Assembly (NCBI GenBank): GCA_000004695.1
Contig: CM000155.2
Span: forward strand, 1,056,001 to 1,120,000
DNA from: Dictyostelium discoideum
Lineage: Eukaryota
Direction: 5' to 3'
Length of the DNA: 64,000 nt
Part shown: in pieces, positions 47,379 to 64,000 of the stretch
Layout of the letters: every line of letters starts with the position of its first letter
How positions within the stretch are numbered: position 1 is the stretch's first letter
Notes under the pieces: generated by a model
Database searches by the model: none
Told to the model about the DNA's origin: nothing
What the model saw: the letters and a program-made list of their open reading frames with translations, nothing else
Translations under genes and position numbers: made by a program

Positions 47379-48217
47379 TTTTTTTTTTTTTTATTTTATT
47401 TTATTTTGTTTAAAAAATATTTTATTTTATTTTATTTTATTTACTTTTTTTAGAATCGAATTACTAATTTGTTTTTATATATTTTATATATATTTATATT
47501 TTAAAATAATTTCCTAATAAATATAAATATACAATATAATTTCAAGTTAATAGTAAATTGATCAGTGTATTTTTAAATAAATTTATATTCATATATAAAT
47601 TTTTATTTTATTTTTTAAATAAATATTGGTATGTTTGTATTGAAAAAAAAAAAAAAAAAAAATCAAAAAAATAAATAAATAAACTCACTCTCACACAGTT
47701 AACCAAATTAGTAATAAAAACACAGAAAACTTTATTGTTTTTTTTATAATTTTTTTTTTTTTTTTTGATTTTTTACTTTCTACTTTAGTATTGTTATCCT
47801 TAAATTTGTAATAATTTTTATTATAATAATATAATTTTAAAATATCACACCGCCTTTCGTTTATTCATTTTATTTAATTATATATTATATTTTTATAAAA
47901 GTATAAAAAAAAAAAAGGAAGTTGTTTTACCTTTTTTTCCACCCATTTTTGGAAAATTAAAATTAAACAACAAAAAAAAAAAAAACCTCCAATATACATA
48001 AAAATTATGGTGATTGTGTTTTTGAACATTCAAAGTAAAGATAATAATATTTAAAAATCGAAATCATTTTTATTTATTTTTTTTATTTTTTTATTTATTT
48101 TTTTTTTTTTTTTTTTTTTTGTATAACACCCACAAACACACCACCACACACCTTCATTAATTTGAAAAAAAAAAAAAGAACGGTTCAATATGTATTTATC
48201 CATTTTTAAACCCCCCC

Positions 48218-48252
<35 letters not shown>

Positions 48253-49810
48253 GGATTTTTATTGTCTAAATCACCTGTGATATCATTAATGTGTGTTGTT
48301 TGTAGGGGTTAATGGTGTTGTTTATTGTTTATTTTAGATATCTGTATGCCTAAAAAGGATATCTACGGACACTATTGTTTTGTTCAATCAATCAAATCTA
48401 TCAATATACACTCTCATATGATTTAATATTGAAAATTTTATTACATGCACTTTAATTAATTATAAAAGGGGAAAAAAATAAATAATAATAATAAAAAAAA
48501 AAAAAGGGGTTACACATTGTTTTATTTTTTTTTTTTATTTAAAAAAAAAAAAAATACTTTATTTATACATATATTTATATATAAATGTTTTCTTTAATTT
48601 TATTTTTATTTTATTTTATTTTTTTTTTTGTTAATGGAAAAATATTGATTAAGTGAGTTTGTGGTAACAACATTATTTTTTTTTTTTTTTTTTTTTTCTT
48701 TCTGTTCTTTTTTCTTCCTTTTTTTTTTTCTTTCTTTTTTTTTTTTGTTTTTTCCCCTTTTTCTTTATAAAAATTTTTTCATTAAATTATTATTTTTAAA
48801 AAAAATTGGGGTCGTATGTACACGTATTTATAATATATAATTAAAGTTTAAGTCATTCCCAAATTAAAAATAGAAAAAAAAAAAAAAAAAAAAAAAACAC
48901 ACATAGCAACATATCATACACTATATAGAATATAGTAATTACTATTCCCTTTTTGCTATTCATTAATATTTTATAAATTTTTTTATGTATGGAAAGAAAA
49001 ACAAACCATTTTCAAATTTTTTTTTTTTTTTTTTTATATAAAAATTAATTATAAAAATAAAAAGAGGTAACAATAATAAAAAAAATAAAAAAATATAAAA
49101 AAATAAAAAATTATAAAAAAATATAAAATTTAATAATAATAATAATAATATCAAATTTAGATGGAAAATTTTAAATATTAGAAATAAAAAAAAAAAAAAG
49201 TCAATTTTTTATTTTTTTTATTTTTTTTTTTTTTTTAAACCCACCAAACCCACTATGCTATTTTTGCAGGCTGATTTAAAATTTTTTTTATTTTTAAATT
49301 AATTCAGGGGCATTAGGTTGATTTTATGATATAAAAATATCAACACCAAACACACACACTCACACATAAATATACACACACAAATTTTTTCTTTCTTTTC
49401 ACAATTAACCTAACATTTTGATTTTTATTTAATTTTTTTTTTTTATTTAATATTTTTTTATTTTTATTTTTTTTATTTTTTTTAAAATTTTAATTTTATT
49501 ATTATCAATAGGATTGATTATTATAATAAAATTTGTTTTTGGATTTTGTTTTTCTCCTTATTTTTAATTTTTTTTTTTTTTTTTTCTAAATAGTTTTTAT
49601 AATTAAAAAAAAAAATAATAAAAAAAAAATAAATAAAAATATATATATATTAATTGTAATAATAATATTAATTTAGATAAATAAAATTAGTTCAAATAAA
49701 TACATACAATTCTAAAAATAAATAAAAAAAAAAAAAAAACACACAGCCTTTGTAACATTAATATCAGTAACACTAAAAAAGTACCAACAAAAAAAAAAAG
49801 TTTTAAACCC

Positions 49811-49861
<51 letters not shown>

Positions 49862-49866
<5 letters not shown>

Positions 49867-49973
49867 ATCAGTGTCAAGCTCTTCAAGTCGATTATCAGTC
49901 TCAACCCCAAGAAAATTAGATGAATGGACAAATGTTACCAAAACTGGTATTGGTATGTGATTTTATACTAAAA

Positions 49974-50004
<31 letters not shown>

Positions 50005-50375
50005 AAAAAAAAAAAAAAAAAAATATTAAAACTTATTTTTTTTTTTTAAATTTATTTTTTTATTTAGTTTTATTCCCATTTAATGCAACACATAAATTTC
50101 AATTACCATTATCAGTAGGAGATTTTGTACAAATTCATGCACAAACATCACAAGAACAAATTGGATGGTATAGTGGTGTTTCAGTTACTACCCAAGAAAG
50201 TGGTATCTTTCCTCAATCATTTGTTGTAATTTTACCAGAACAAACTGATATTGATGATCCATTATCACTTCCAAATCATATTCCAATATGTTCAAAATTG
50301 TAATTACTAATTATACACCCCCATTTTTTTTTTTTTTTTATAATAACAAATATTAATAATAATAATTTTATTTTT

Positions 50376-50406
<31 letters not shown>

Positions 50407-51408
50407 TTCATTTTAAAAAAAATAGAACTTTAACAAATGATGAAATGTCAAATTCATCAATTGTAAATGAAATAACATCAACAATTGTAGAATGGGCAAC
50501 ATTATTAAAGATTTATTCAACTGGTAAACAATATAATGAATTTAAAGTTTTATCACAAAAGATATCACAATTGGTTCAATATAGAAATCAAATTTTATTA
50601 TATAAATCACCAAAAGAGATTACCTATGATTTACGTGATCGTATTCTTTCGGTCATTGATGAAGGTAGAAGAGATACAGGTATGACTATAGTTTTAAGAA
50701 AAGAGATTCCAAATACTTATAGTTCATTAGCATGTCAACAAGCATCTCAAAGAACCAGTATAAATATACCACCAACGGTAGCAACTGATTTGATTTTAGC
50801 AGATGCTGAAAATTCAGGTGTTTTCACACTTTGTACAATGTATCAAGAAAAGAAATTAGAAATTGTAGCTCTAAATAATAGTTTTAGAGATTCATTTGAA
50901 TATGATTCTTTAGAAATTAGTGGAGCTAATTTAAATAATAGTTTAAATAATGTAAATAGTAATAACAATAACAATATAAATAATTCAAATATAGCGGCCG
51001 CCGGAGGATTACAATCATCCTTATCGACAAATAATTTATTAAATGGAGCCAATGTAATATTATCACAATCACCATCACCAATGAACTCATCATCAACTGC
51101 AACATCATTATCACAACAACAATCACCAAATTCTTCATCCATTGGTCAATCACCAATTTCATCAGGTCAATCATCACCAACCAATTCAAGTTCAACTACA
51201 TTACCAGGTTCTTCACCTTCAAATGGTAATAATATATTGGGTAGTTCAATGAATGGTGGTGGTGGTATTGGTGGTGCTAATGGTTCACCATTATCAAATT
51301 CAAATAAAGATTTACAATTTTCATCATCACAATCACAAACATCAATACTTCAACAAACTCAATCACAATCTCAATTAATACAGCAACAACAACAACAATC
51401 ACAACAGC

Positions 51409-51440
<32 letters not shown>

Positions 51441-54269
51441 GTTCAATATTCATCATCACCGTCATCTCAATCTTCATCATCATTTTCATCATCACCAGGT
51501 AATTCCTCATTTTTATCATCAAAATTAAATAAACAGGGTAGTTCAAAAAATTTTTTATCAAATGTATTATTAAAGAGTAAAGGATCATCATCATCAACAT
51601 CATCACTTTCAATGAGTGGTGGTATGTTACCACCATCAAATGGTTCACCAAATGGTTTAAATTCAAGCGGAGGATTTTCAAATCATGGTAATGGTCTATC
51701 AAATTCAAACAATGGAATTCAACCATCCTCATCATCATCATCATCTCCATCATCTTCATCACCTTCCTCTTCTTCAATGGTTAGCTCTTCATATGTGTCA
51801 GTATCAGCTCAATCACCATCATCAATATCTTCACCAAATGTTAATGGTGGTTTAAATCAATCATTATCATCATTAAATTTAAATTCACCAATTTTATCAA
51901 ATTCACCAAATAAAAAAATGCAAACTATAAAAATGAAATCTAGACAATATTTATTACAACAACAACAGATTCAACAACAGCAACAACAACAACAAGGTGG
52001 AAATAGTAATAGCAGTGGTGGTAATAGTAATAATAATAATAATAATGGTGAAATGATAACGAAATTTAATTCACAACTTTTAATATCATTAAATAATTTC
52101 TTATATTCATCTGGCGATAATATTGATATTGTATTATCAATTTATAATAGATCAGAGAATAAATTCCTATCAGAGAGTTATTGTGGTATTGTACCACCTC
52201 ATGGTATTTTTGTTGAACCAGAGAATCCAAATGAAAGAATTAGAACAATCTTTAGAGATTTAGAACTCAAGGATTTAAATTCCGATTTATATTTAGTGGC
52301 TAAACTTTACAGAAAAACCAATTCACTCTCATCAAAGGATCCAAATTCATCACCAACATTAACTCGTTCAAATGCAAATATGTCAAGTAGTTCAAATTTA
52401 AATAATCTTGGTGGTCCAACTAAATTGTTTAGAAAATTTGTTGGTTGTGGTGTAAAGAGATTAGATCTTTCAAATGAAGGTGTTAGTGAATTAATGATTA
52501 CATTGAATACCACTAGTAGTGAAAATAATTTTTATAATCTTCATGAGCAAATTATAAATGAACAAACTACAATCTATGAACCAATTACTAGAGCTAAAGG
52601 TGTTGTTTTTACAGTTCAATTATTCACTGGTGATTATCAGCAATTCCTTCAAGAGTTTCCAGATTTTAGAAGTGTAACTACCTCTTTAAAATTACAATTA
52701 CCAGAGGTGGTTTTACCTGGTGGTGAAAGAAATGATATGTATATTCAATTGGAGGAAGGGGATTTCTCTGATAAAAACATTGAGGTACAATTACAAGTTC
52801 GTACTGAATCTGGTCAAATCATTCATGATGCAATTAAATTTGCAAATGGTCAATCATCAACTAGTGAATTTAAAACCCCACTTATTCCATCGGCACTTTG
52901 TAAATGGAATGAGATTGTAAAGATTTGGGTAACTGCAAAAACATTTGAAAAATCTCATCTTTTCTTTTTATTCAGACAATGTTCAGAAAAGAAAGATAAA
53001 GAGAGACAAACCATTGGTTTCGGTTATTTGAAATTTATGTCTGATGAAGGTTCTATCATTAAGGATCAACAATATACAATAAATGTCTATAAATCCAATA
53101 CCGATGATGTACCAGTTTCAAGTTATATCAATGGTGGTGTTGTAGATAATGAGAAATCAAGTAAATCAACAAAGAAATTAGATTCAATTAAAGTTAGAAC
53201 CACTTTTGTATCAAATTGTTTAACTCAAAATCCTTCGGTTGTGAATTTATCAAGATGGCAACAATATGGTGGCGATTTGTCATCGTTGATTAAGGATATC
53301 ACTTTCTTAAATTCTCAAGATCTTGTACGTAATCTTCAAGAGATCTTTTATAATTTCCTCTCAATTTTAGATCAACAATTGAATGATTCACCCCTATCGA
53401 TGGAGATTTTCCGTGCAATCGTTTTCATCATTGGTGTATTGGTCGAGAGTAGGACTTCAAATTATCGTCCAGCTTTAGATCTTTACGCTTCAAAATATTT
53501 TGGTACACCATTATCAAGCTCAAATAACAAACAAGACTCTTTCACTGGTATCACTGCACATACTCATTTACTTCGTTCCGTTGTAAAGAATTTAGAAAAC
53601 TTTGAAATACCTGCAAACGCTTCAAAAATTAGTTCATCTTTGAAAGCTTTGGAATATATTTTCAAGTTGGTAGTTGCTTCAAAAACTAAATTCACTGCAA
53701 ATAAAATGGATACTTTGGGTGGAAGCAATAATGAATCCTATCAAACCAATCTAAAGAGTGTAGTCGATATACTTTGCGAGATTATGTTAAGTGGTTCACC
53801 ATCTTTAATCGGTGCTAAAACTATAGCTTTAAAAAATTTCGAATCAATGTTTACAGATTTAAAGAAATTCTTTACAGTTGAAGAAATGGGTATTATAGCT
53901 TTGAAATTCATGAAATCCATTCAACATGATGAAAAGAAGAAAACTTTTTCAATCTTAAAATTGAAATTACTCTCCTCCTATATCAATGGTCCAATGATGT
54001 TATGTAAAGAAACTAGAAAACAATTATTACCATTGGTTTTCCAATTATTACATTTCCATTTTAGTAAATCAAGTGAAGAAACTGATATGTGTTTAATGAT
54101 CTTGGGTTTAATCGTTGATATTATGATTACTAAATCTGAATTACGTGGTAAAGATAAAGATCCTTGGTTAATGGAAATGTTACATTTCTTTGTACCAATT
54201 TTAGAATTATTACAATTATTAAATAATGGTAATAATATTAATAATTTAACTACTACAAATAATACAACC

Positions 54270-54304
<35 letters not shown>

Positions 54305-54766
54305 AACAACTACTACCACTACTACAACTACAAATTCAACAGTTGATGAAAAACGTAAAAGTTTATCATCAATTACATCACAATTATCAATAATGATTTC
54401 AACAATGAATGAAGAAAATCAAAATAATTTACGTATTAAAATTTATGCATTCATTTTAGGTACTGCTAGATTAAGTGGTGTTCAACATTGGGAGATGGTT
54501 AATAAATCAGTTACACAATTAAACAAAAACTTTTTCATTAATCTTTATGATAGTTTACAATTAATTTTTGAATCACCAAAATTCCCATCTGATTTTTGGA
54601 CATTTACAGTTTTCCAATTAAAAACAATTCTTAGAATGACTCGTATTTTAGAAGATGTAATATTTTATTTACCTTCAAATGTTGTACCAGCTGCAACTGC
54701 AACTGCAACTTCAACTTTAACAAATAATAATAACAATAGCAATAATAATAATAGTATTACCATCAC

Positions 54767-54811
<45 letters not shown>

Positions 54812-56768
54812 TATTGGTTCAAGTGCAAATACTGGTGGTAGTGGTAATAGTTTAATTAATCAAAGTCAATTTGAATTTACTCAATGGAGATCATTCTTTT
54901 TATTGACAAGTTCATATTTAAATTGTAAAGATTTACAATTTGAATCTGTTAATCCAGCAAAAGCAGTATTTATTAAAACTAGATGTGGTGATGTTAGAAT
55001 TGAAATGGCAAGAGTATTTGAAAGAGTTTGGGCAACAGTACCAATTAAAGAAAGATCAACCTTTATACCAGTGCTAATTGGACCAATTGTAAAATTATCA
55101 ATTAGTGATACTATGGATGCAAAACGTGTAGCAACTAAAATCTTTTATGATATGTTAGAGAGTGAAATCATTCAAACCAATGGTTACACTGATTTATTCT
55201 ATCATACTATCGATTCATTATTGGAGATTTCAACTGAACGTTTGAATAGAAAAGGTTGGCCAATAGTTTGTCGTAGTGTAGATGGTAAGCTACCATTTAC
55301 CCTAAGATCATTCTCAACCTTTTTCAATGTTAAATGTATGTCTTTGGTTTTAAATAAATCAACCGATGCTATCAAGACCAAATCAGAACAATTCATTCAT
55401 GATATCAACCATTTCCTTTATTTAATCACCTCCTTTATGAATGATGTAAAGAGTGGCGATGAAGAAGAGATCTTTTCATCAGTTTCAAAATTATTATATT
55501 ATCTTCAAGAACATAAACGTACCGCTCATTTCATTAGATTCGTTCATATGACAAGTAGAAGACATTACGAAATGGGTAACTATATTGAGGCGGCCGTGAC
55601 TCTTATGTTACATGCTTCACTCTACCAATGGGATGCCAATAAAGTAATTGCTCAAACTGCCTCAGAATATGGTTCTTTCCCTGAACAAAAAGAATCTGAA
55701 CGTAAAGAATTACTCTATAAGGAGATATTGTTATGTTTTAATAATGGTAAGGCATGGGATAGAGCAATTCCATTGGTTAAAGAGTTGGTTCATCATTTCA
55801 CTATGAACATTTGTGATATGAACTCCGCTGCTACTTATCTTCGTCAACAAGGTGCTTTCTATCAAAAAATCAATGAATCTGCCGATCCAGTTTTCGAGGA
55901 TTATTTCAGAGTAGGTTATTATGGTAAAGGTTTCCCAAGTTCAATTCAAAATAAAGAATTCATCTACAAGGGTAATCAATTTGATCGTTTATCTGATTTC
56001 ATTTCAAAGATTCAAGATAAATGGCCAAAATCTGAGCTACTTAAAACCACTGAGGTTCCTTCTCAACAAATTCAAGATTCCGATGGTCAATATCTTTTAA
56101 TCACCTCTGTAAACATTTCAAACATTGGTGAAACACAAAAACGTCATGATAGTGCAAACGCTGAATCTATCACCAACAAGAAACGTGTACCACATCGTGT
56201 TCAACAATTTAATGCTCGTAATAAGGTCAATGTCTTTGTTTATAGTAAACCTTTCAAAAAGAATGCCACTGCCACTAAATCTCAAAATGAATTTGAAGAT
56301 CTTTGGGTAATGAACCTATACTTTGTTTGTGAAAATTCTTTCCCTTGTACAGAACGTCGTTGTTTAATCGTCGAACGTAAACAAGTTGAAATCTCACCCA
56401 TTGAAAATGCCCTCAACTCAATCGTTCAAAAGAATGATGAATTGGCCGCTAGAATCGATAGACATCAAGCAAACACTCAAGAATCCATTAGTCCTTTAAC
56501 AATGTTATTAAATGGTATTATCGATGCCTCTGTAAATGGTGGTGTTAGTCGTTACGAAACCTTTATGAGTGAAGATTATCTCAAACAAAATCCAGAATAT
56601 AAAAATATTGCTGAACTCTTAAAATCTGCTCTTGATCAACAGTTAGTTATTGTTGAACAAGGCTTAAAACTTCATTCTCAATTACGTCCACCTGAAATGG
56701 CTGCTATGCAAGATAAATTAGAAACTTTCTTTATAACAATGAAAAATTCAAGACAAAAATTAAATTAA
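49862..56768 (+). CDS. DOCK-family Rac/Cdc42 guanine-nucleotide exchange factor of the DOCK180-like subfamily (N-terminal SH3, DHR-1, DHR-2), ~2221 aa, three exons: join(49862..49952,50068..50299,50426..56768)
   Basis: Exons 1-3 MASVSSSSSRLSVSTPRKLDEWTNVTKTGI-(G|gtatgt)-VLFPFNATHKFQLPLSVGDFVQIHAQTSQEQIGWYSGVSVTTQESGIFPQSFVVILPEQTD... form an SH3 domain (compare DOCK180 ...[35 protein letters not shown]). IVNEITSTIVEWATLLKIY matches DOCK180 LIQEVTTTLREWSTIWRQLY. The C-terminal DHR-2 segment FEDYFRVGYYGKGFPSSIQNKEFIYKG...DLWVMNLYFVCENSFPCTERRC matches the conserved catalytic DOCK segment (YFRVGFYGKKFP...). The three-exon sum is 6666 nt, which is in frame. Confidence 0.88.
54259..54330. repeat. 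(ACY)n codon repeat encoding a ~25-residue poly-Thr tract inside the DOCK gene
   Basis: Direct reading: ...[29 protein letters not shown]... Confidence 0.85.
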
Positions 56769-57166
56769 TTTAAAATAAAAAAAAAAATAAAAATAAAATA
56801 AAAAAAATATATTTATATAAAATAAAAATAATAATGATATTATCAAGTTTTAAAATCATTATATTGTAATAAACCCCTTTAACCATTTTCTTATTTTGGA
56901 TATTTCCAGATTTGGAAATTTTCTTTTTGGCTATTGGATTTTACTTAAAATAGTAAATTATTTTATTTTTTTTTTCAAATAATTCAAAAAATTGAAAAAT
57001 GATTGAGTACAAATAGAAAGTTTTGAAAAAAAAAAAAAAAAAAAAAATCATTTATATAAATGTAAAAAAAAAAATAACAAATAGAATAAAAATCTAACTC
57101 CAACAATTAAAAAGGTTTAGATTATAGTTGATTGATAGTTTAAAATATAAAAAAAAGGTAAATCCA

Positions 57167-57197
<31 letters not shown>

Positions 57198-57785
57198 AAA
57201 TATCAATTTAAATCTACCTTTAATATTATATTTTATAGAGTAATTTTATCAAATAAAAATGGTTAAAATTCAATTATAATTTAGATAATATAATATAATA
57301 CATGAATCACTACCAATCGAATGATAGAGAAAGGAAAGATTTATCTATGCACTATATCATAAAGAAAGGTTGATCATCATCATCATCATATAAATATTAT
57401 TTTCTAAACAAAAAAAATGAATCAATTTTAATCAAATGTCGAGAAAGGAAAGATTTATCTATCCACTATGTCATTTTGAAAAGAAGTTGATATCATTTAT
57501 AAATAAATAATTAGAAATCAAATAAAACTATAAATAAAATAAAACCCATAATAAAATTAAAAAGATTTAATATAAAAAATTAAAATATTTTTTTTTTTTA
57601 AATTCCTTTTTGATTTTATTATTAAAAAAAAATTAAAATTATACAAATGTTTTCCCCTGAATTTTTTTTTTTCTTTGAATTAATTAATTGTTTTGGAAAA
57701 AAAAAAAAAAGTTTTTTAAATTTTGGAATAAGAAAATCGTTTTTTTTTTTTTTTATTTTTATTTTTAATTTTTTTTTTTTTCGCA

Positions 57786-58708
57786 ATGAGTATTGTTGTA
57801 AGTGTTTTATTATTATTGTTGTTTTTATTTTTTTTCTTGACATACTAACTATTCATTTAATAGATAGCAGGTAGATTTGATCTTGTAAATAAAAAACTTG
57901 ATTCAGTTACAGATAAAAGTTTAGAAACAGCTATAAATGAATATGATTATTCAAAAGATAATAATGAAAATAAAGATTTAAAATTTTATCATGTAAATAT
58001 TTTTAAATATAGTTTATTGTAATCTTAAAATGTTTATAAAATATTAATAATAATAATAATAATAAATTGAAATACACCTTAGATGTTAGACATAGGTGGT
58101 AATATGATCACTTCAATTTCATTAAATTCAATTTCAAAATATTTCTTTCACATCACAGAATTATATTTAATAAATAATGAATTTAAAGAAGTACCAGAAG
58201 AAATCCATAGTTTAGTAAATTTAAAGAAATTATATTTTTCAAAAAATAAATTAACAAAGGTAAAAAAATAAAAAAATAAAAGGAAACACATATTGTCAAT
58301 TATCAATTTACTAATTTTTAAATTCATACATACATTAATATAAAGATTAGTAACATTGATAAATTAGTGAATTTAGAAGTAATTGATTTTAGGGCAAATA
58401 GAATAACAAATTTATCTGGTATTGAAAATAATTTAAATTTAATTAGGTAAATAATTACATTTTTATTTTATTTTTTTCTTATTTTTTTATATATTTATAC
58501 AATTAACTAATAAAGTTTTATATTAAATATATATATATAAATATATAAATATAGTATTTCAGTGTCTAATAATTTGGTTAATAATATTGACTCAATACCA
58601 AAATTATTAAATTTACATTCATTATTTTTATTTTCATCTCATATTCCAAATTTAGAATCTTTTTTAAATATTTTATCAACAAGATGTCCAAATATGAAAA
58701 GTTATTAA
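57786..58708 (+). CDS. Small leucine-rich-repeat (LRR) protein, ~190 aa as encoded, five exons: join(57786..57797,57864..57992,58083..58259,58346..58446,58555..58708); its LRRcap-like tail is out of frame (see findings)
   Basis: MSIV|gtaagt; IAGRFDLVNKKLDSVTDKSLETAINEYDYSKDNNENKDLKFYH|gtaaat; MLDIGGNMITSISLNSISKYFFHITELYLINNEFKEVPEEIHSLVNLKKLYFSKNKLTK|gtaaaa; ISNIDKLVNLEVIDFRANRITNLSGIENNLNLI(R/S)|gtaaat; ISVSNNLVNNIDSIPKLLNLHSLFLFSSHIPNLESFLNILSTRCPNMKSY*. The LxxLxLxxNxI periodicity is clear; splice phases are consistent. Confidence 0.5.
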
Positions 58709-59546
58709 TTGACTCTAGTACTATGATAAATGAGTCAAATAGATCAATTTATAAAAATTTAGTTAAACAAGCATTACCAAAAATAAAATTATTAGATTAT
58801 ACAAAGATGTGTTGTAATAGAGATAAAAAATAAAAAAATAGAAAATAAAATAATAAATGAGTATTTATTTTATTTATTTATTTATTTATTTGTTTATTTA
58901 TTTATTTATTTATTTTATTGGAATGGAAAACATTAATCATTTAACAATTATTTTTTTATTTTTTTATTTTTATTTTTATTTTTTTTTTTCATGATTTTTT
59001 TTTTTTTTTTAATTTTTTTTTAATTTTTATTTTTTTAACTTTTATTTTATTTTATTTTTTTTTTTTTTTTTTTTTATTTTTTGGCAATTGTTTATTTTCT
59101 ATCAAAAGAATTTTGTGTACCGTTTTTTAAATAAATCTTGAAATATTCTATATATAGATATTAAGAGATTTAAACCAAAGATAGGTAAAAGGATTTTTGG
59201 AAATTCAAATAAAAAAGTTACTATAATAATAAAACTCCACAAATATATAGTCATTCATTTTTTAAAAATTTAGGGTTAGTGAATACCTTAAAAATGCAAG
59301 AAAGATTCTATAATAAAAATAATAATAATAATAATAATAATAACTATAATAATAATTATCATAACAACTATAAATATAATTATCATTATTAAAAATAAAA
59401 TTTAAAATAATTAAATAAAACAAAAAAAACACATACATACATAGAAATATATAAACGATTATACAATACCTACCAAAATAAATATAAAAAATAAAATAAT
59501 TAATAATAATAATTAATAATTGATAATTGACAATAATAATAATAAA

Positions 59547-60036
59547 ATGACATATAATAATAATAATAATTATTTAGCACCTCCATTAATGACATCAACC
59601 TCTACCTCAACATCAACATCAACGCCAACCTCAACTAAAACATCACCATTGAATACATCATCTTCATCAAATATTCTAAAGAGTAATTCAAGAAATCCAT
59701 CACCAAACAATCCAACCAATATAGGTAATAGTAGTGGTGGTGGTGGTGTTAGTAGTAATAATAGTAATAACATAGTTTATAGTAATAGTAATAATATAAA
59801 TACATCAACATTTCACTATAATTTCAATGTTAAATTCAATGAAATTGTTAATTCCATTGCAGTGAACAGAGCGGGTACACTTGTTTGTTTAGGTGGAAAA
59901 AAGTCATTACAAGTAGTTGATTTGGAATTATTAAAAAGTGTTAGAAATATACCACAACAAAGTAAATGGGAAGTTGGTGTAGTTGATTGGAATAGTCAAT
60001 CACCAAATTTAGTTGCTTCATCTGTATGTTTATTTA

Positions 60037-60092
<56 letters not shown>

Positions 60093-61730
60093 CACAAATA
60101 TTATTATTATTATTAGTCAAATCAAGATACATTTATATGGGATATTGAAAATCCAAAGTATCCATTACTTGGACAATTTTCATCACATCAACGTGCAATC
60201 TCAGATTTATCATGGAGTTTATTCGATAATAATATATTGGCGACTACTAGTGCCGATTCATTTGTAAATATTTGGGATTTAAGAACACCAAAGAAAGCAG
60301 TAAAATTTAAATCTTTAAAATCTCATATTCTTGGTGCAATTCAAGTTAAATGGAATAGATTCAATAGTAATGTTTTAGCTTCTGCTCATGAAAGTTATTT
60401 AATGATTTGGGATATTAGAGTATGTTTTTCTTGTTATTTTATATATTAATAACAATATATTGTTTGTTTACTAATTTTTAATTAATTTATATGTATTATA
60501 TATATATATGTATAGAAAGATTCACAAGAATTAAATACAGCAGTACATTCAGCAAAAGTTTATGGTATTGATTGGTCACATAGGGATGAGAAAGAGATAT
60601 TGACATGTAGTCAAGATAAGACTGTAAAAATATGGAATTATCCATCACCAAAACCAAAATCAACAATTATAACCTCCAATCCAATATTGAGAGCAAAATA
60701 TTTACCACTTGGTAGTGGTGGTATTGTGACAATATCAGATCGTGGTGAAAATCATATTAGACTATGGGATAGTGCAACTAGTGATTATTCAACTCCTGTT
60801 GAAACTTTCATTGGTCATACTGATAATGTTCGTTCATTCGATTTCAGAGTTAGATCCTCTCAAAATGATAATGATATTCAAATAGTATCTTGGTCAAAAG
60901 ATCAATATTTACGTCTTTGGAAATTAGATGATCATTTAAAAGATTTATTTAATATTGAATATATACCATTTACACCATTAAATTTACCAACAACAACAAC
61001 AACTACAACCACCGCAACCACTACAACAACAAATAATTCTACAAGCGAAATGTTAAATGAATCAACTGATAATAATAATAATACAAATAGTTTAAATAGT
61101 TCAACATTATTATCAACACCAAATTTAGAAAGTAGTATTAATAGTTTAAATATGGAATTAACTATTGAACAACAACAACTTGATGATTCAAATACACCAA
61201 AAGATTTAGAATATGAATTAAAAATTATACAAAGTAAAGTAATTGATAAATATTTAAAGATTGAACAAGTCAATTTATTTAAAAGGACTTGCGTTGTAAT
61301 TTGTACAATTCCAAATAATTATCAACCAGATGATGATAATAATAATAATAATTTAAATAATTTAAATAATAATAATAATACCCAAGATAATATTGATAAC
61401 AATGATGATAATAATAATAATGAATTAATTGATTCAACAACTGTACAAATTAGATTTTCATTTCCATCACTTTATCCAAGTACATATCCAAATTTAGAAT
61501 TTATACCACATGCTTGTACAACACCATTGAAAACTAATTTATTAATTAAATCAACTTTAAATGAATTATGTGCATTCAAATCATCACAATCTAAAAATTG
61601 TTTTGAACAATGTTTAATTGAATTGGTTAAATTGGTTAAACAATATATTTTAGATGAAAAACCAAAAAATACTTCAATTAATATAACCGAAACTAATAAT
61701 AATAATAATAACCATAATAATTCTGTACAA

Positions 61731-61776
<46 letters not shown>

Positions 61777-63535
61777 GTGGTGGTGGATTTTTAAAGAATG
61801 TATTTTCAAAATCGTCAAAAGCGGTTGAAGTTGTTAAACAACCATTTATAAATTTAAGAAATTCAAGTGGAAGAATTGATATTAGTCAACAACAACAACA
61901 GCAACAGCAACAACAAGCAGCAACAACATCTACATCATCATCATCATCGAGTAGTTCTAACACCCAACAACAACAACAATTTTTAACAGCAACAGTATCA
62001 AATAAAGGTGGTACAGTTTTATCAAAATCACCAACATCTCCAAGAATGTTTGAACAATATAGACCTGGTAAAACTAATAAAACAAATGAAATTATATTTT
62101 TAAATAATTATAAAGATTCAAATGAAGAACAATTACCACTTTCTCCAATTTTAACAAATTTAAATAATAATAGTAATAATAATAGTGGTAGTGGTGGTGG
62201 TGGTAGTAGTAATATGAATGCATCAATAACAACATCAACCACTACAAATGATCAAGTATCATTATCAGTTCATAGAAATTCCTATAGAATTCAAGAGAAT
62301 TATCCATGTCCAAGATTATGTGGTGCTGTTTTTGGTGGTTGTGGTAAATTAATAGTTTTTAGAAATACAATTATAACAAATATTCCAAATAATAATAAAA
62401 ATAGCGACAATAGCAATAATAATAATAGTAGTAGTAGTAATAAAAATAGTGACAATAGTAATAATAGTAATAATAATAGTAATAATACCAATAGTAGTAG
62501 TAGTAGTAATAATGGTGGTATAGCAAATGTTGGTGGTGGATCATCATCTACTTCATCACTCATTCATCACCATCTTCAACATCTTCATCTTAATCAACCT
62601 CAATTAAATTTATTATCTTTATCATTATCCTCATCTTCTTCATCAATTTCTGATACAACAAATAATACTTCAAATACAACACAAAATATACAAAATACAA
62701 CTAAAAATATTAATCCACCAAGAACATACAAAGAATTATTAAATATTTTATCAACAACAAATAATACAATTAAAAATAATATTACTGGCAATAATAATAT
62801 TAATAGTAATAGTAATACAACAAATAATTTAACTTCACCAAATCCAAATAGATTAAATCGTTTAAATGAAAAACAACCATATTCCTCTTCTCCTTTTAAT
62901 GATAACCCTTTAATTGTAAGTATTTATTATTTATTATTTATTGGATTTTTTTTTTTATGGAAAAATCCTTAAGATATAAATATATTTTTTATTTTTTATT
63001 TTTTTTTTTTTTATTAAAAATATCCTAAAGATATTTAAAATTTTTTTTTTTTTATTTTTTATTTTTTTTTTTTTTTTATTAAAAATATATAATTTTTTTT
63101 TTTTCCAGTTATAATAATTTTTATTTTTTTTTTTTATTATTATAATAATTACTAATATCCACTTTTTTTTTTTATTTTTTTTTTCAATTGTTTTTTATTT
63201 TTTATTTTTATTTTTTTTTTTTTTTTTTTATTAACAATAGAATGATTATAAAAATAATATTTTTGGGACACCATCAACAAGCCATTCATTTTTAGCATCA
63301 CCACAACCATCATCACCAATTTCATTTATGAATCACATTGATACTTTATTAGATGACAGTGAAAATAATTTAATGACAATGGATAATAATAATAACAATA
63401 ATATTGTAAATGATGAAGAAACTCAACAACTAGTAACTTCATCTTCACCAACTTTTTCCAAGTCATCATTAAATAATATTAATAATACAACAAACAATTC
63501 AAATAATAATAGTTCTAATAGTAATAATAATAGTA

Positions 63536-63577
<42 letters not shown>

Positions 63578-64000
63578 TTAATAACAATAACGATAATAAT
63601 AATGGCAATGGTAAATCCTTACAAAAAACTATGAAAATAATTGATATATCAACATTATCATTATTAAATGTAAATTTAGCAAATTCATATATGTATGTAT
63701 ACTTTTTTTTTTTTTTTTTTTTTTTTTAATAAAATGGGATATTGATATTTCATATTTTTTTATAGTTTATCAGGTAAACCAGTTGAAGAAATTTGTAAAT
63801 ATAATTCAGAATTAGCAGAGAAAGAAAACAGAAAAGATTTAGTTAAACTTTGGAATACACTTGGAATGATAACAGATTCAAAGTTATATCTTAAACAATT
63901 GATAAATCAACAACAACAACAATCACATTTTGGATTTAGTGGTAGTTCAGGTAGTACAGGAATGGGTGGAAGTAGTAGTACTGGTATTGCATCAAGTACT
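59547..64000 (+). CDS. WDR59 homologue (GATOR2/SEA complex subunit: WD40 + RWD + C-terminal zinc-finger region), 3'-partial, >1100 aa, five or more exons: join(59547..60023,60117..60419,60516..62915,63241..63692,63766..>64000)
   Basis: RNIPQQSKWEVGVVDWNSQ vs human WDR59 RKISRQSKWDIGAVQWNPH. ILATTSADSFVNIWDLRTPKK, LMIWDIRKDS, and KTVKIWNYPSPKPKSTIITSNPILRAKYLPLGSGGIVTI (human NSVKFWDYRQPRKYLNILPCQVPVWKARYTPFSNGLVTV). RWD-like segment TVQIRFSFPSLYPSTYPNLEFI. CGAVFGGCGKLIVFRN (human CGAGYLVYF). The last exon SYILSGKPVEEICKYNSELAEKENRKDLVKLW matches human LGELYILNVNDIQETCQKNAASALLVGRKDLVQVW. The gene runs off the end of the window. Confidence 0.85.

What the first reader, a model, noticed from the sequence alone, without database searches (positions are those of the whole stretch)
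58555..58835. LRR gene: conserved-looking C-terminal tail is out of frame by one base at an A4 run
In the frame dictated by the LRR periodicity, the last exon ends ...STRCPNMKSY* at 58706..58708. Shifting by +1 at the aaaa run (58697..58700) continues for 44 more codons, KLLIDSSTMINESNRSIYKNLVKQALPKIKLLDYTKMCCNRDKK*. That reads like an LRRcap-type tail (...lP.Lk.LD...), with a stop at about 58832. One extra A would join the two. Either this is a sequencing or assembly indel in a homopolymer, a strain-specific frameshift (a recent pseudogenisation or truncation allele), or programmed +1 slippage, which is the least likely.
Basis: seen in the sequence. Interest (0 to 1): 0.5.

Follow-up and report, generated by a model that had tools for sequence, protein, structure and literature searches.

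The report
Reference-sequence frameshift in Dictyostelium LRR gene
The broken reading frame is really in this sequence, but every other copy of the gene, including one from what is probably a sister lab strain, is intact, so it is most likely one of a cluster of errors in the AX4 reference rather than a biological frameshift.

Summary
The window is Dictyostelium discoideum AX4. The gene is DDB_G0292170, a small SDS22-like leucine-rich-repeat (LRR) protein.

**Observation.** It is confirmed. The LRR frame stops at 58706-58708 (…NMKSY*), and a second frame stays open for 44 more codons to 58833.

**Two details are wrong.**
- The missing base is a T of an ATT codon (between 58695 and 58696), not an A of the A4 run.
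- A ribosome would need a −1 shift, not +1.

**Comparison with other copies.** Nine other copies read …RCPNIEKLLIDSS…DYTKM in one frame: six assemblies examined as DNA or annotated protein, two D. citrinum proteins and D. purpureum.
- Adding one T makes the last AX4 exon identical, base for base, to a second D. discoideum assembly (probably AX2-214) and to an independent short-read contig.
- Over 16.2 kb, AX4 and that assembly differ by substitutions only in two dense patches. The gene lies in one of them: 9 substitutions and 3 single-base indels in 1.4 kb.
- Five of those substitutions fall within 12 nt and destroy the native TAA stop.
- At every site that could be polarised, the AX4 reference is the lone outlier.

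**Verdict.** The best explanation is a low-quality patch in the reference (about 0.8). A real AX3/AX4-lineage lesion is not excluded (about 0.15). Programmed frameshifting is rejected. The deposited 193-aa model hides the break with a false 62-nt intron. The true protein is probably 225 aa.

The parts
57786..57797 (+). Exon 1 (MSIV), followed by a GTAAGT donor
   Evidence: The N-terminus MSIVIAGRF matches the orthologue models P0001, P0012 and P0010.
57864..57992 (+). Exon 2
   Evidence: The translation matches the orthologues.
58083..58259 (+). Exon 3 (LRRs). It contains C58206 (His), where all other copies have A (Asn).
58346..58446 (+). Exon 4 (LRRs)
58555..58695 (+). Exon 5, the part read in the LRR frame up to the lesion (…ISVSNNLVNNID…STRCPN-I/M)
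58695..58696 (+). The lesion: one T is missing between these two bases (ATT GAA in all other copies, AT-GAA here)
   Evidence: Adding a T makes exon 5 identical over 255 nt to L005 and L003.
58697..58700 (+). It is intact relative to the other D. discoideum copies (GAAAAG).
58706..58708 (+). Premature TAA in the LRR frame, created by the missing T
58696..58809 (+). Conserved C-terminal tail coding sequence (EKLLIDSSTMINESNRSIYKNLVKQALPKIKLLDYTKM), in the −1 frame relative to the LRR frame
   Evidence: Against D. firmibasis, 14 of 19 differences are at third codon positions, with 13 synonymous and 4 non-synonymous codons. In the AlphaFold model of P0001 it forms a strand at 189-192 and a helix at 200-213.
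58810..58822 (+). Cluster of five substitutions (58811, 58812, 58814, 58820, 58822) unique to the AX4 reference. TGT replaces the native TAA stop at 58810-58812.
58810..58833 (+). Extension found only in the reference (CCNRDKK plus TAA). It is absent from all other copies.
58701..58762 (+). False intron used by the deposited AX4 model (P0003, …NMK|IKQALPKIK…) to bridge the frameshift
   Evidence: The donor is GTTATT, against GTAAGT, GTAAAT, GTAAAA and GTAAAT in the real introns. AT content is 79%, like the exons (75-81.5%) and below the four real introns (82-93.5%). The stretch is coding in the orthologues.
57428..58822 (.). Discrepancy patch B: 9 substitutions and 3 single-base indels between the AX4 reference and a second D. 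discoideum assembly. The flanks are identical for 7.6 kb on the left (49812-57427). On the right, to 64000, only homopolymer-tract differences occur.

Best explanation
DDB_G0292170 encodes a 225-residue SDS22-like LRR protein. Its last repeat and C-terminal cap are encoded in one frame with the rest. In the AX4 reference sequence, a 1.4-kb stretch (57428-58822) carries a dense set of base-level errors. One of them is a dropped T (58695/58696), which breaks the frame. Another is a five-substitution cluster that removes the real stop codon. The frameshift is therefore a property of the deposited sequence, not of translation. The annotated 193-aa model compensates with a false intron.

- **Shown:** the discrepancy pattern, the intact state in all other copies, and the conservation of the tail.
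- **Inferred:** that the discrepancies are errors rather than true AX4 mutations, and that the comparison assembly is AX2-214.
For: 1. Nine other copies are in one frame and stop after …DYTKM: two other D. discoideum assemblies, Logan short-read contigs from SRR26869246 and SRR26869257, D. cf. discoideum, two D. citrinum, D. firmibasis and D. purpureum.
2. Restoring one T makes AX4 exon 5 identical over 255 nt to L005 and L003.
3. Over 16.2 kb, the AX4 reference and GCA_054883475.1 differ by substitutions only in two patches (48212-49811 and 57428-58822). There are none in the 7.6 kb between them, which includes the 6.3-kb DOCK ORF. Patch B mixes substitutions, one-base insertions and a deletion.
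4. At the sites that can be polarised (57827, 58206, 58695, 58811-58822) the AX4 reference is the only outlier among six sequences.
5. GCA_054883475.1 is near-identical to AX4 outside the patches. Of the D. discoideum isolates in PMC12745789, only AX2-214 is not described as diverged from AX4. L006, the other assembly labelled D. discoideum, is 89% identical here. AX2 and AX4 share the parent NC4 (my own knowledge).
6. The measured mutation rate is 2.9e-11 per site per generation. In the same study, 1916 candidate differences from the reference were shared between AX4 mutation-accumulation lines. The authors attributed them to reference errors, to differences between their ancestor clone and the reference, or to mutations arising while cells were grown up to start the lines (PMC3466296).
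7. At 14 of the 19 substituted sites the reference has G or C where the other assembly has A or T. That would be unexpected for real mutations, which I expect to favour GC→AT in this very AT-rich genome (my own knowledge; counts).
Against: - No AX4 reads, ESTs or second AX4 assembly could be examined, so a real AX3/AX4-lineage lesion is not excluded.
- The identity of GCA_054883475.1 as AX2-214 is by elimination, not from a strain label.
- AX3 was obtained after nitrosoguanidine mutagenesis (my own knowledge), which can give closely linked multiple mutations.
- Patch A could not be polarised. Some of its discrepancies could be errors in the Nanopore-based assembly instead.
Confidence: 0.8

Rival explanations
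1. This is a real lesion of the AX3/AX4 laboratory lineage. A local burst of mutations (12 changes in 1.4 kb) truncated the protein before its last repeat and cap, making a strain-specific null or hypomorphic allele.
For: - The sequence as deposited carries the lesion.
- The AX4 state is derived and unique at all polarisable sites. A lineage-specific mutation would look the same.
- There are three independent hits on the coding sequence (N→H, the frameshift and the stop loss), which would fit decay after inactivation.
Against: - The expected number of real differences between two NC4-derived strains in 16 kb is about zero at 2.9e-11 per site per generation.
- The changes are mostly AT→GC plus one-base indels. 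That is not the GC→AT signature of nitrosoguanidine (my own knowledge).
- A second, similar patch lies 9 kb away in intergenic DNA. This suggests a data-quality effect rather than selection on this gene.
Confidence: 0.15
2. The deposited gene model is right. Positions 58701-58762 are a genuine intron, and AX4 makes a 193-aa protein that lacks 22 tail residues.
For: GT…AG boundaries exist, and the splice restores the tail frame (…NMK|IKQALPKIK…).
Against: - The donor GTTATT is unlike the four real donors (GTAAGT, GTAAAT, GTAAAA, GTAAAT).
- AT content is 79%, equal to the exons and below the real introns.
- The stretch is translated in all orthologues, with substitutions biased to the third codon position.
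- It would remove the strand at 189-192 and most of the helix at 200-213 in the model.
Confidence: 0.03
3. This is programmed ribosomal frameshifting or transcriptional slippage at the A4 run, joining the two frames.
For: The two frames overlap at an A run. tRNA-Lys could re-pair on AAA in the +1 register (seen in the sequence).
Against: - The required shift is −1, not +1. A +1 shift meets TGA after three codons (and sequence).
- There is no X XXY YYZ heptamer in the zero frame (CCA AAT ATG AAA AGT).
- There is no downstream structure: −9.6 kcal/mol, z = 0.37.
- A run of four A's is, to my knowledge, too short for transcriptional slippage.
- No orthologue has a frame break, so nothing is conserved to be programmed.
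Confidence: 0.01

Closest known systems
SDS22 (PPP1R7) and axonemal dynein light chain 1: SDS22-like LRR proteins with a C-terminal cap (Pfam LRR_9 PF14580; SMART LRRcap, the latter from memory)
   Same: - The ~22-residue repeats match SDS22-type profiles. The PDB profile search gives E = 2.9e-25 to PPP1R7.
- The best Foldseek matches are SDS22 (E = 3e-7) and dynein light chain 1 (5yxm, TM 0.61, rmsd 2.0).
- The tail provides one more β-strand and a helix after the last repeat.
- It ends with an …LPKIKLLD… motif like the cap consensus.
   Different: - The protein is much shorter (225 aa, about 6 repeats).
- The N-terminal 45 residues are modelled with low confidence.
- The LRR_9 match across the tail is below Pfam's threshold in the D. 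discoideum clade: 16-21 bits against a cutoff of 30.5.
- Only a handful of homologues were found outside group-4 dictyostelids.
- No functional data exist.
[quoted passage not shown]
   Same: - PMC3466296 reports 1916 candidate base differences from the reference that were shared between AX4 mutation-accumulation lines. The authors attribute them to reference errors, to differences between their ancestor clone and the reference, or to mutations arising while cells were grown up to start the lines.
- PMC12745789 reports 99.5% identity between the AX2 and AX4 assemblies at the tgrBC locus. The figure here is 99.64% over 16.2 kb.
   Different: Here the discrepancies are shown to be tightly clustered. 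One of them changes an annotated protein, and a false intron masks it.
Programmed −1 ribosomal frameshift sites (X XXY YYZ heptamer plus downstream structure)
   Same: Two overlapping frames that together encode one conserved protein.
   Different: There is no slippery heptamer, no stimulatory structure and no conservation of the frame break.

Membership tests
SDS22-like LRR protein with C-terminal cap (Pfam LRR_9 / LRRcap) | Tandem ~22-residue leucine-rich repeats of the LxxLxLxxNxI type | tested here: met
   Pfam LRR_4 scores 45.9-57.5 bits (cutoff 27) in the AX4 product and its orthologues. The profile search against PDB hits PPP1R7 at E = 2.9e-25.
SDS22-like LRR protein with C-terminal cap (Pfam LRR_9 / LRRcap) | A cap segment directly after the last repeat, recognisable by sequence | tested here: inconclusive
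   - LRR_9 reaches its cutoff only in D. purpureum (34.3 bits against 30.5), and that stretch (106-195) stops before most of the tail.
- Matches that run across the tail are sub-threshold: D. firmibasis 102-224, 21 bits; AX4 repaired with an extra A 103-226, 19.2 bits.
- LRR_NXF1-5 matches D. purpureum 119-218 at 23.3 bits (cutoff 30.5).
- SMART LRRcap itself is not in the libraries.
SDS22-like LRR protein with C-terminal cap (Pfam LRR_9 / LRRcap) | A cap-like fold (extra strand plus helix covering the end of the solenoid) | tested here: inconclusive
   - The AlphaFold2 model of P0001 has mean pLDDT 69.6. By 10-residue blocks, pLDDT over 161-220 is 77, 82, 88, 62, 76 and 75.
- It shows a strand at 189-192 and a helix at 200-213.
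- The top Foldseek hits are SDS22 and dynein LC1.
- The alignment has only 5 sequences, and per-residue coverage of the tail in the hits was not inspected.
Programmed −1 ribosomal frameshift | Slippery heptamer X XXY YYZ in the upstream frame | tested here: not met
   The zero frame reads CCA AAT ATG AAA AGT TAT TAA. No such heptamer is present.
Programmed −1 ribosomal frameshift | Downstream stimulatory RNA structure | tested here: not met
   For 58690-58810 the minimum free energy is −9.6 kcal/mol, against a shuffle mean of −10.5 (z = 0.37).
Programmed frameshift (any sign) | The frame break is conserved in orthologues | tested here: not met
   All nine other copies are in a single frame.
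Programmed +1 frameshift | The downstream ORF lies in the +1 frame | tested here: not met
   The tail is in the −1/+2 frame (codon starts ≡1 against ≡2 mod 3). The +1 frame hits TGA after three codons (and sequence).
Spliceosomal intron (as in deposited model P0003) | A Dictyostelium-type donor (GTAAGT-like), AT content above the exon level, and no coding conservation | tested here: not met
   The donor is GTTATT. AT content is 79%, against 82-93.5% in the four real introns. Orthologues translate the stretch, with changes biased to the third codon position.
Strain-specific truncation allele / young pseudogene | The lesion is reproducible in independent sequence data from the same strain | not testable with these tools
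   No AX4 reads or second AX4 assembly are available. The exact AX4-type ORFs are absent from the protein collection.
Strain-specific truncation allele / young pseudogene | The lesion is absent from close relatives | tested here: met
   It is absent in GCA_054883475.1 (probably AX2-214), in the Logan contigs and in all sister species. A reference error predicts the same result.

The most novel reading that the evidence does not exclude
The AX3/AX4 laboratory lineage really carries a localised mutation shower: 12 changes in 1.4 kb, with a second shower 9 kb away, and flanking DNA identical to AX2. It inactivated this LRR gene. That would be kataegis-like or mutagen-induced clustered mutagenesis in Dictyostelium, and it would make AX4 a natural knockout of DDB_G0292170.
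Probability: 0.12. Interest if true: 0.35.

Novelty: not a real feature. Interest (0 to 1): 0.12.

Why it matters
The value is practical rather than conceptual.
- The reference model of DDB_G0292170 (193 aa; UniProt Q54DS5) is probably wrong in at least three places. It has a false intron that hides a frameshift. It skips a 15-residue LRR segment. It has a 7-residue extension caused by a destroyed stop codon. The likely true product is a 225-aa capped LRR protein.
- Discrepancies between the AX4 reference and newer assemblies can come in dense patches. These can silently distort gene models.
- If the lesion turned out to be real, AX4 would lack a gene that AX2 has. That would matter when comparing phenotypes between the two lab strains.

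Tried and rejected
This gives …PNMKKLL…. I rejected it in favour of adding a T (…PNIEKLL…), which reproduces the other D. discoideum copies exactly.
2. **Exact-sequence look-ups in the 15-billion-protein collection.** I tried the AX4-type ORFs (48, 49 and 62 aa), the spliced 190-aa product, a 211-aa product using the deposited model's intron at the break, and the 232-aa products repaired with an A or a T. None is present. No AX4-derived read assemblies could be recruited, and nothing can be inferred from their absence.
3. **The look-up of encoding contigs for the deposited AX4 protein P0003.** It is not on record.
4. **Paper searches for DDB_G0292170 and for the run prefix SRR268692.** No papers were found. 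The strain behind the Logan contigs remains unknown. It differs from both AX4 and L005 at 58481, 58526 and 58820, so it is probably an independent isolate.
5. **Supplementary files of PMC12745789**, to tie GCA_054883475.1 to a strain name. None are held.
7. **Polarising the three intergenic substitutions (57428, 57547, 57616).** The outgroups do not align there.

Full report
**What is in the window**

The region is very AT-rich and has short GTAA…AG introns. A homology search identifies the gene as DDB_G0292170 of Dictyostelium discoideum AX4 (P0003; contig of 3,602,379 bp).

Reading the sequence gives five exons: 57786-57797, 57864-57992, 58083-58259, 58346-58446 and 58555-58708. They encode 190 residues ending …STRCPNMKSY, with TAA at 58706-58708. 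The reading frame with codon starts ≡1 mod 3 stays open from 58684 to a TAA at 58831-58833. From 58699 it reads KLLIDSS…DYTKMCCNRDKK, which is 44 codons. Only 16 of 5000 dinucleotide shuffles of that stretch lack a stop.

**Where the break is, and its sign**

Orthologue DNA was fetched for:
- D. cf. discoideum (L001);
- D. firmibasis (L002);
- two further assemblies labelled D. discoideum (L005/L007 = GCA_054883475.1, and L006 = GCA_054859355.1);
- two Logan short-read contigs (L003 from SRR26869246, L004 from SRR26869257).

All of them read CCA AAT/AAC ATT GAA AAR …. The window reads CCA AAT AT-GAA AAG. The lost base is a T of the Ile codon, between 58695 and 58696. The GAAAAG that contains the A4 run is unchanged relative to the other D. 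discoideum copies.

Adding that T makes the AX4 last exon identical over all 255 nt to L005 and L003.

The LRR frame has codon starts ≡2 mod 3 and the tail ≡1 mod 3. A ribosome would therefore have to slip −1. A +1 slip gives GTT ATT AAT TGA.

**The tail is coding**

Nine other copies encode …RCPNIEKLLIDSS(T/I)MIN(D/E)SN(R/K)S(I/T)YK(N/D)LVKQALPKIKLLDYTKM, or the diverged D. purpureum equivalent, in one frame with the repeats. Against D. firmibasis the 38 tail codons show differences at codon positions 1, 2 and 3 of 3, 2 and 14, with 13 synonymous and 4 non-synonymous codons. That matches the LRR part of the same exon.

**The frameshift is one of a cluster of discrepancies**

Over 16.2 kb (47761-64000), the window and GCA_054883475.1 are 99.64% identical. 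Every substitution falls in one of two patches, apart from one mismatch at 60040 at the edge of a poly(A)-length difference.
- Patch A is 48212-49811, intergenic, with 10 substitutions.
- Patch B is 57428-58822, with 9 substitutions and 3 one-base indels.
- The 7.6 kb between the patches, including the 6.3-kb DOCK-family ORF, has no difference at all.
- To the right of patch B, only homopolymer-tract differences occur.

Patch B contains:
- an inserted A in an intron T-run (57827);
- C for A at 58206 (His for an Asn that is invariant in the orthologues);
- the missing T;
- five substitutions within 12 nt (58811, 58812, 58814, 58820, 58822). These turn ATG TAA TTT AAT A into ATG TGT TGT AAT AGA G. 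They remove the native stop and add CCNRDKK.

At all these genic sites the AX4 reference is the single outlier against L005, L003/L004, L006, L001 and L002.

**Which strain is the comparison assembly?**

PMC12745789 (Holland et al., PNAS 2025) describes ten new Nanopore-plus-Illumina assemblies. They include the lab strain AX2-214 and the wild isolates CR116C and OT3A, which are described as genetically diverged from AX4. L006, also labelled D. discoideum, is only 89% identical here. L005/L007 is identical to AX4 outside the patches. By elimination, L005/L007 is AX2-214. This is an inference, because no strain label was available.

AX2 and AX3/AX4 both derive from NC4 (my own knowledge). The measured mutation rate is 2.9e-11 per site per generation (PMC3466296). 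Real differences in 16 kb should therefore be essentially nil. The same paper found 1916 candidate differences from the reference that were shared between AX4 mutation-accumulation lines. [quoted passage not shown]

**Interpretation**

Four features fit a low-quality stretch of the Sanger-era reference, whether from base-calling or from a cloning or PCR artefact:
- the discrepancies are dense and mixed (substitutions, insertions and a deletion);
- they lie between long identical flanks;
- the AX4 reference is always the odd one out;
- at 14 of the 19 substituted sites the reference has G or C where the other assembly has A or T, in an AT-rich genome.

I put this explanation at about 0.8.

A real AX3/AX4-lineage mutation cluster cannot be excluded without AX4 reads (about 0.15). 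AX3 came from nitrosoguanidine mutagenesis (my own knowledge), which can give linked mutations. However, the spectrum here is not GC→AT.

Programmed recoding is rejected for four reasons:
- the sign is wrong for +1;
- there is no X XXY YYZ heptamer;
- there is no downstream structure (z = 0.37);
- no orthologue has a frame break.

**The deposited gene model**

P0003 (193 aa) reads …RCPNMK|IKQALPKIKLLDYTKMCCNRDKK. It splices out 58701-58762.
- That 'intron' has a GTTATT donor. The four real introns start GTAAGT, GTAAAT, GTAAAA and GTAAAT.
- Its AT content is 79%, like the exons (75-81.5%) and below the real introns (82-93.5%).
- It is translated in all orthologues.

It is a predictor's way round the frameshift. 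The same model also skips VNLKKLYFSKNKLTK, which is part of an LRR, and starts at MIAGRF.

**What the protein is**

- Pfam finds LRR_4 above threshold.
- A profile of the orthologues hits SDS22/PPP1R7, SHOC2 and the internalins in PDB.
- LRR_9 (PF14580) passes its cutoff only in D. purpureum. It aligns across the tail at sub-threshold scores in D. firmibasis and in AX4 repaired with an extra A.
- An AlphaFold2 model of the 96%-identical P0001 has mean pLDDT 69.6 and block means of 62-88 over residues 161-220. After the LFLFSS strand it places a helix (173-183), a further strand KLLI (189-192), a helix (200-213) and a short terminal strand.
- The best Foldseek matches are SDS22 and axonemal dynein light chain 1.

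The tail therefore plausibly supplies the last β-strand and the C-terminal cap of the solenoid. A product truncated at …NMKSY would lack both and would probably be unstable; this is an inference. The 'LRRcap-type' reading is reasonable but not established at the sequence level.

**Verdict**

The anomaly in the sequence is real, but it is most likely an artefact of the reference. The finding has low biological interest. Its use is as a correction to one gene model, and as a warning that the AX4 reference contains patchy errors.

Noticed in passing
window 48212-49811: A second dense patch of discrepancies between the AX4 reference and GCA_054883475.1, in intergenic DNA upstream of the DOCK-family gene. 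It has 10 substitutions plus homopolymer-length differences. The reference mostly has G or C where the other assembly has T or A (for example GGGG against GTGG twice, and CCCCCCCC against CACACCCC). It was not polarised, so it is unclear which assembly is wrong.
   Followed up: partly
L004 positions ~820-992 (window equivalent after ~58850): The Logan contig from SRR26869257 (the same contig occurs in 4 samples) leaves collinearity with the window shortly after the gene's AATAAA. It continues with an A18 run and then, on the minus strand, what looks by eye like an aldehyde-dehydrogenase-type ORF. That sequence is absent from the window. This is either a chimeric assembly or a rearrangement in that strain.
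   Followed up: partly
window 58215-58259: The deposited AX4 model P0003 uses an upstream GTAAAT donor at about 58215 and so omits VNLKKLYFSKNKLTK. All orthologue models and the repeat periodicity keep these 15 residues. P0003 also starts MIAGRF instead of MSIVIAGRF.
   Followed up: partly
L005 3001-4607 and L006 3001-4666 (window equivalent about 58806-59392): The gene models in the new D. discoideum assemblies (P0012 of 282 aa, P0010 of 280 aa) splice past the native TAA after …DYTK into a downstream Asn/Tyr-rich ORF (window 59279-59392). D. citrinum, D. cf. discoideum and D. firmibasis models, and the Logan ORF, all stop at …DYTKM. This is probably a predictor artefact.
   Followed up: no
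window 57327-57367 and 57441-57481: A 41-nt direct repeat (88% identical, spacing 114 nt) in the intergenic region between the DOCK-family gene and the LRR gene: GAGAAAGGAAAGATTTATCTATNCACTATNTCAT…. Its function is unknown.
   Followed up: no
window 50445-56768: A 2107-aa uninterrupted ORF. Its orthologue in L006 carries the Pfam domains DOCK_N, DOCK-C2 and DHR-2, so it is a DOCK-family guanine-nucleotide exchange factor. The ORF is identical between the AX4 reference and GCA_054883475.1, which gives the baseline for the patch analysis.
   Followed up: partly
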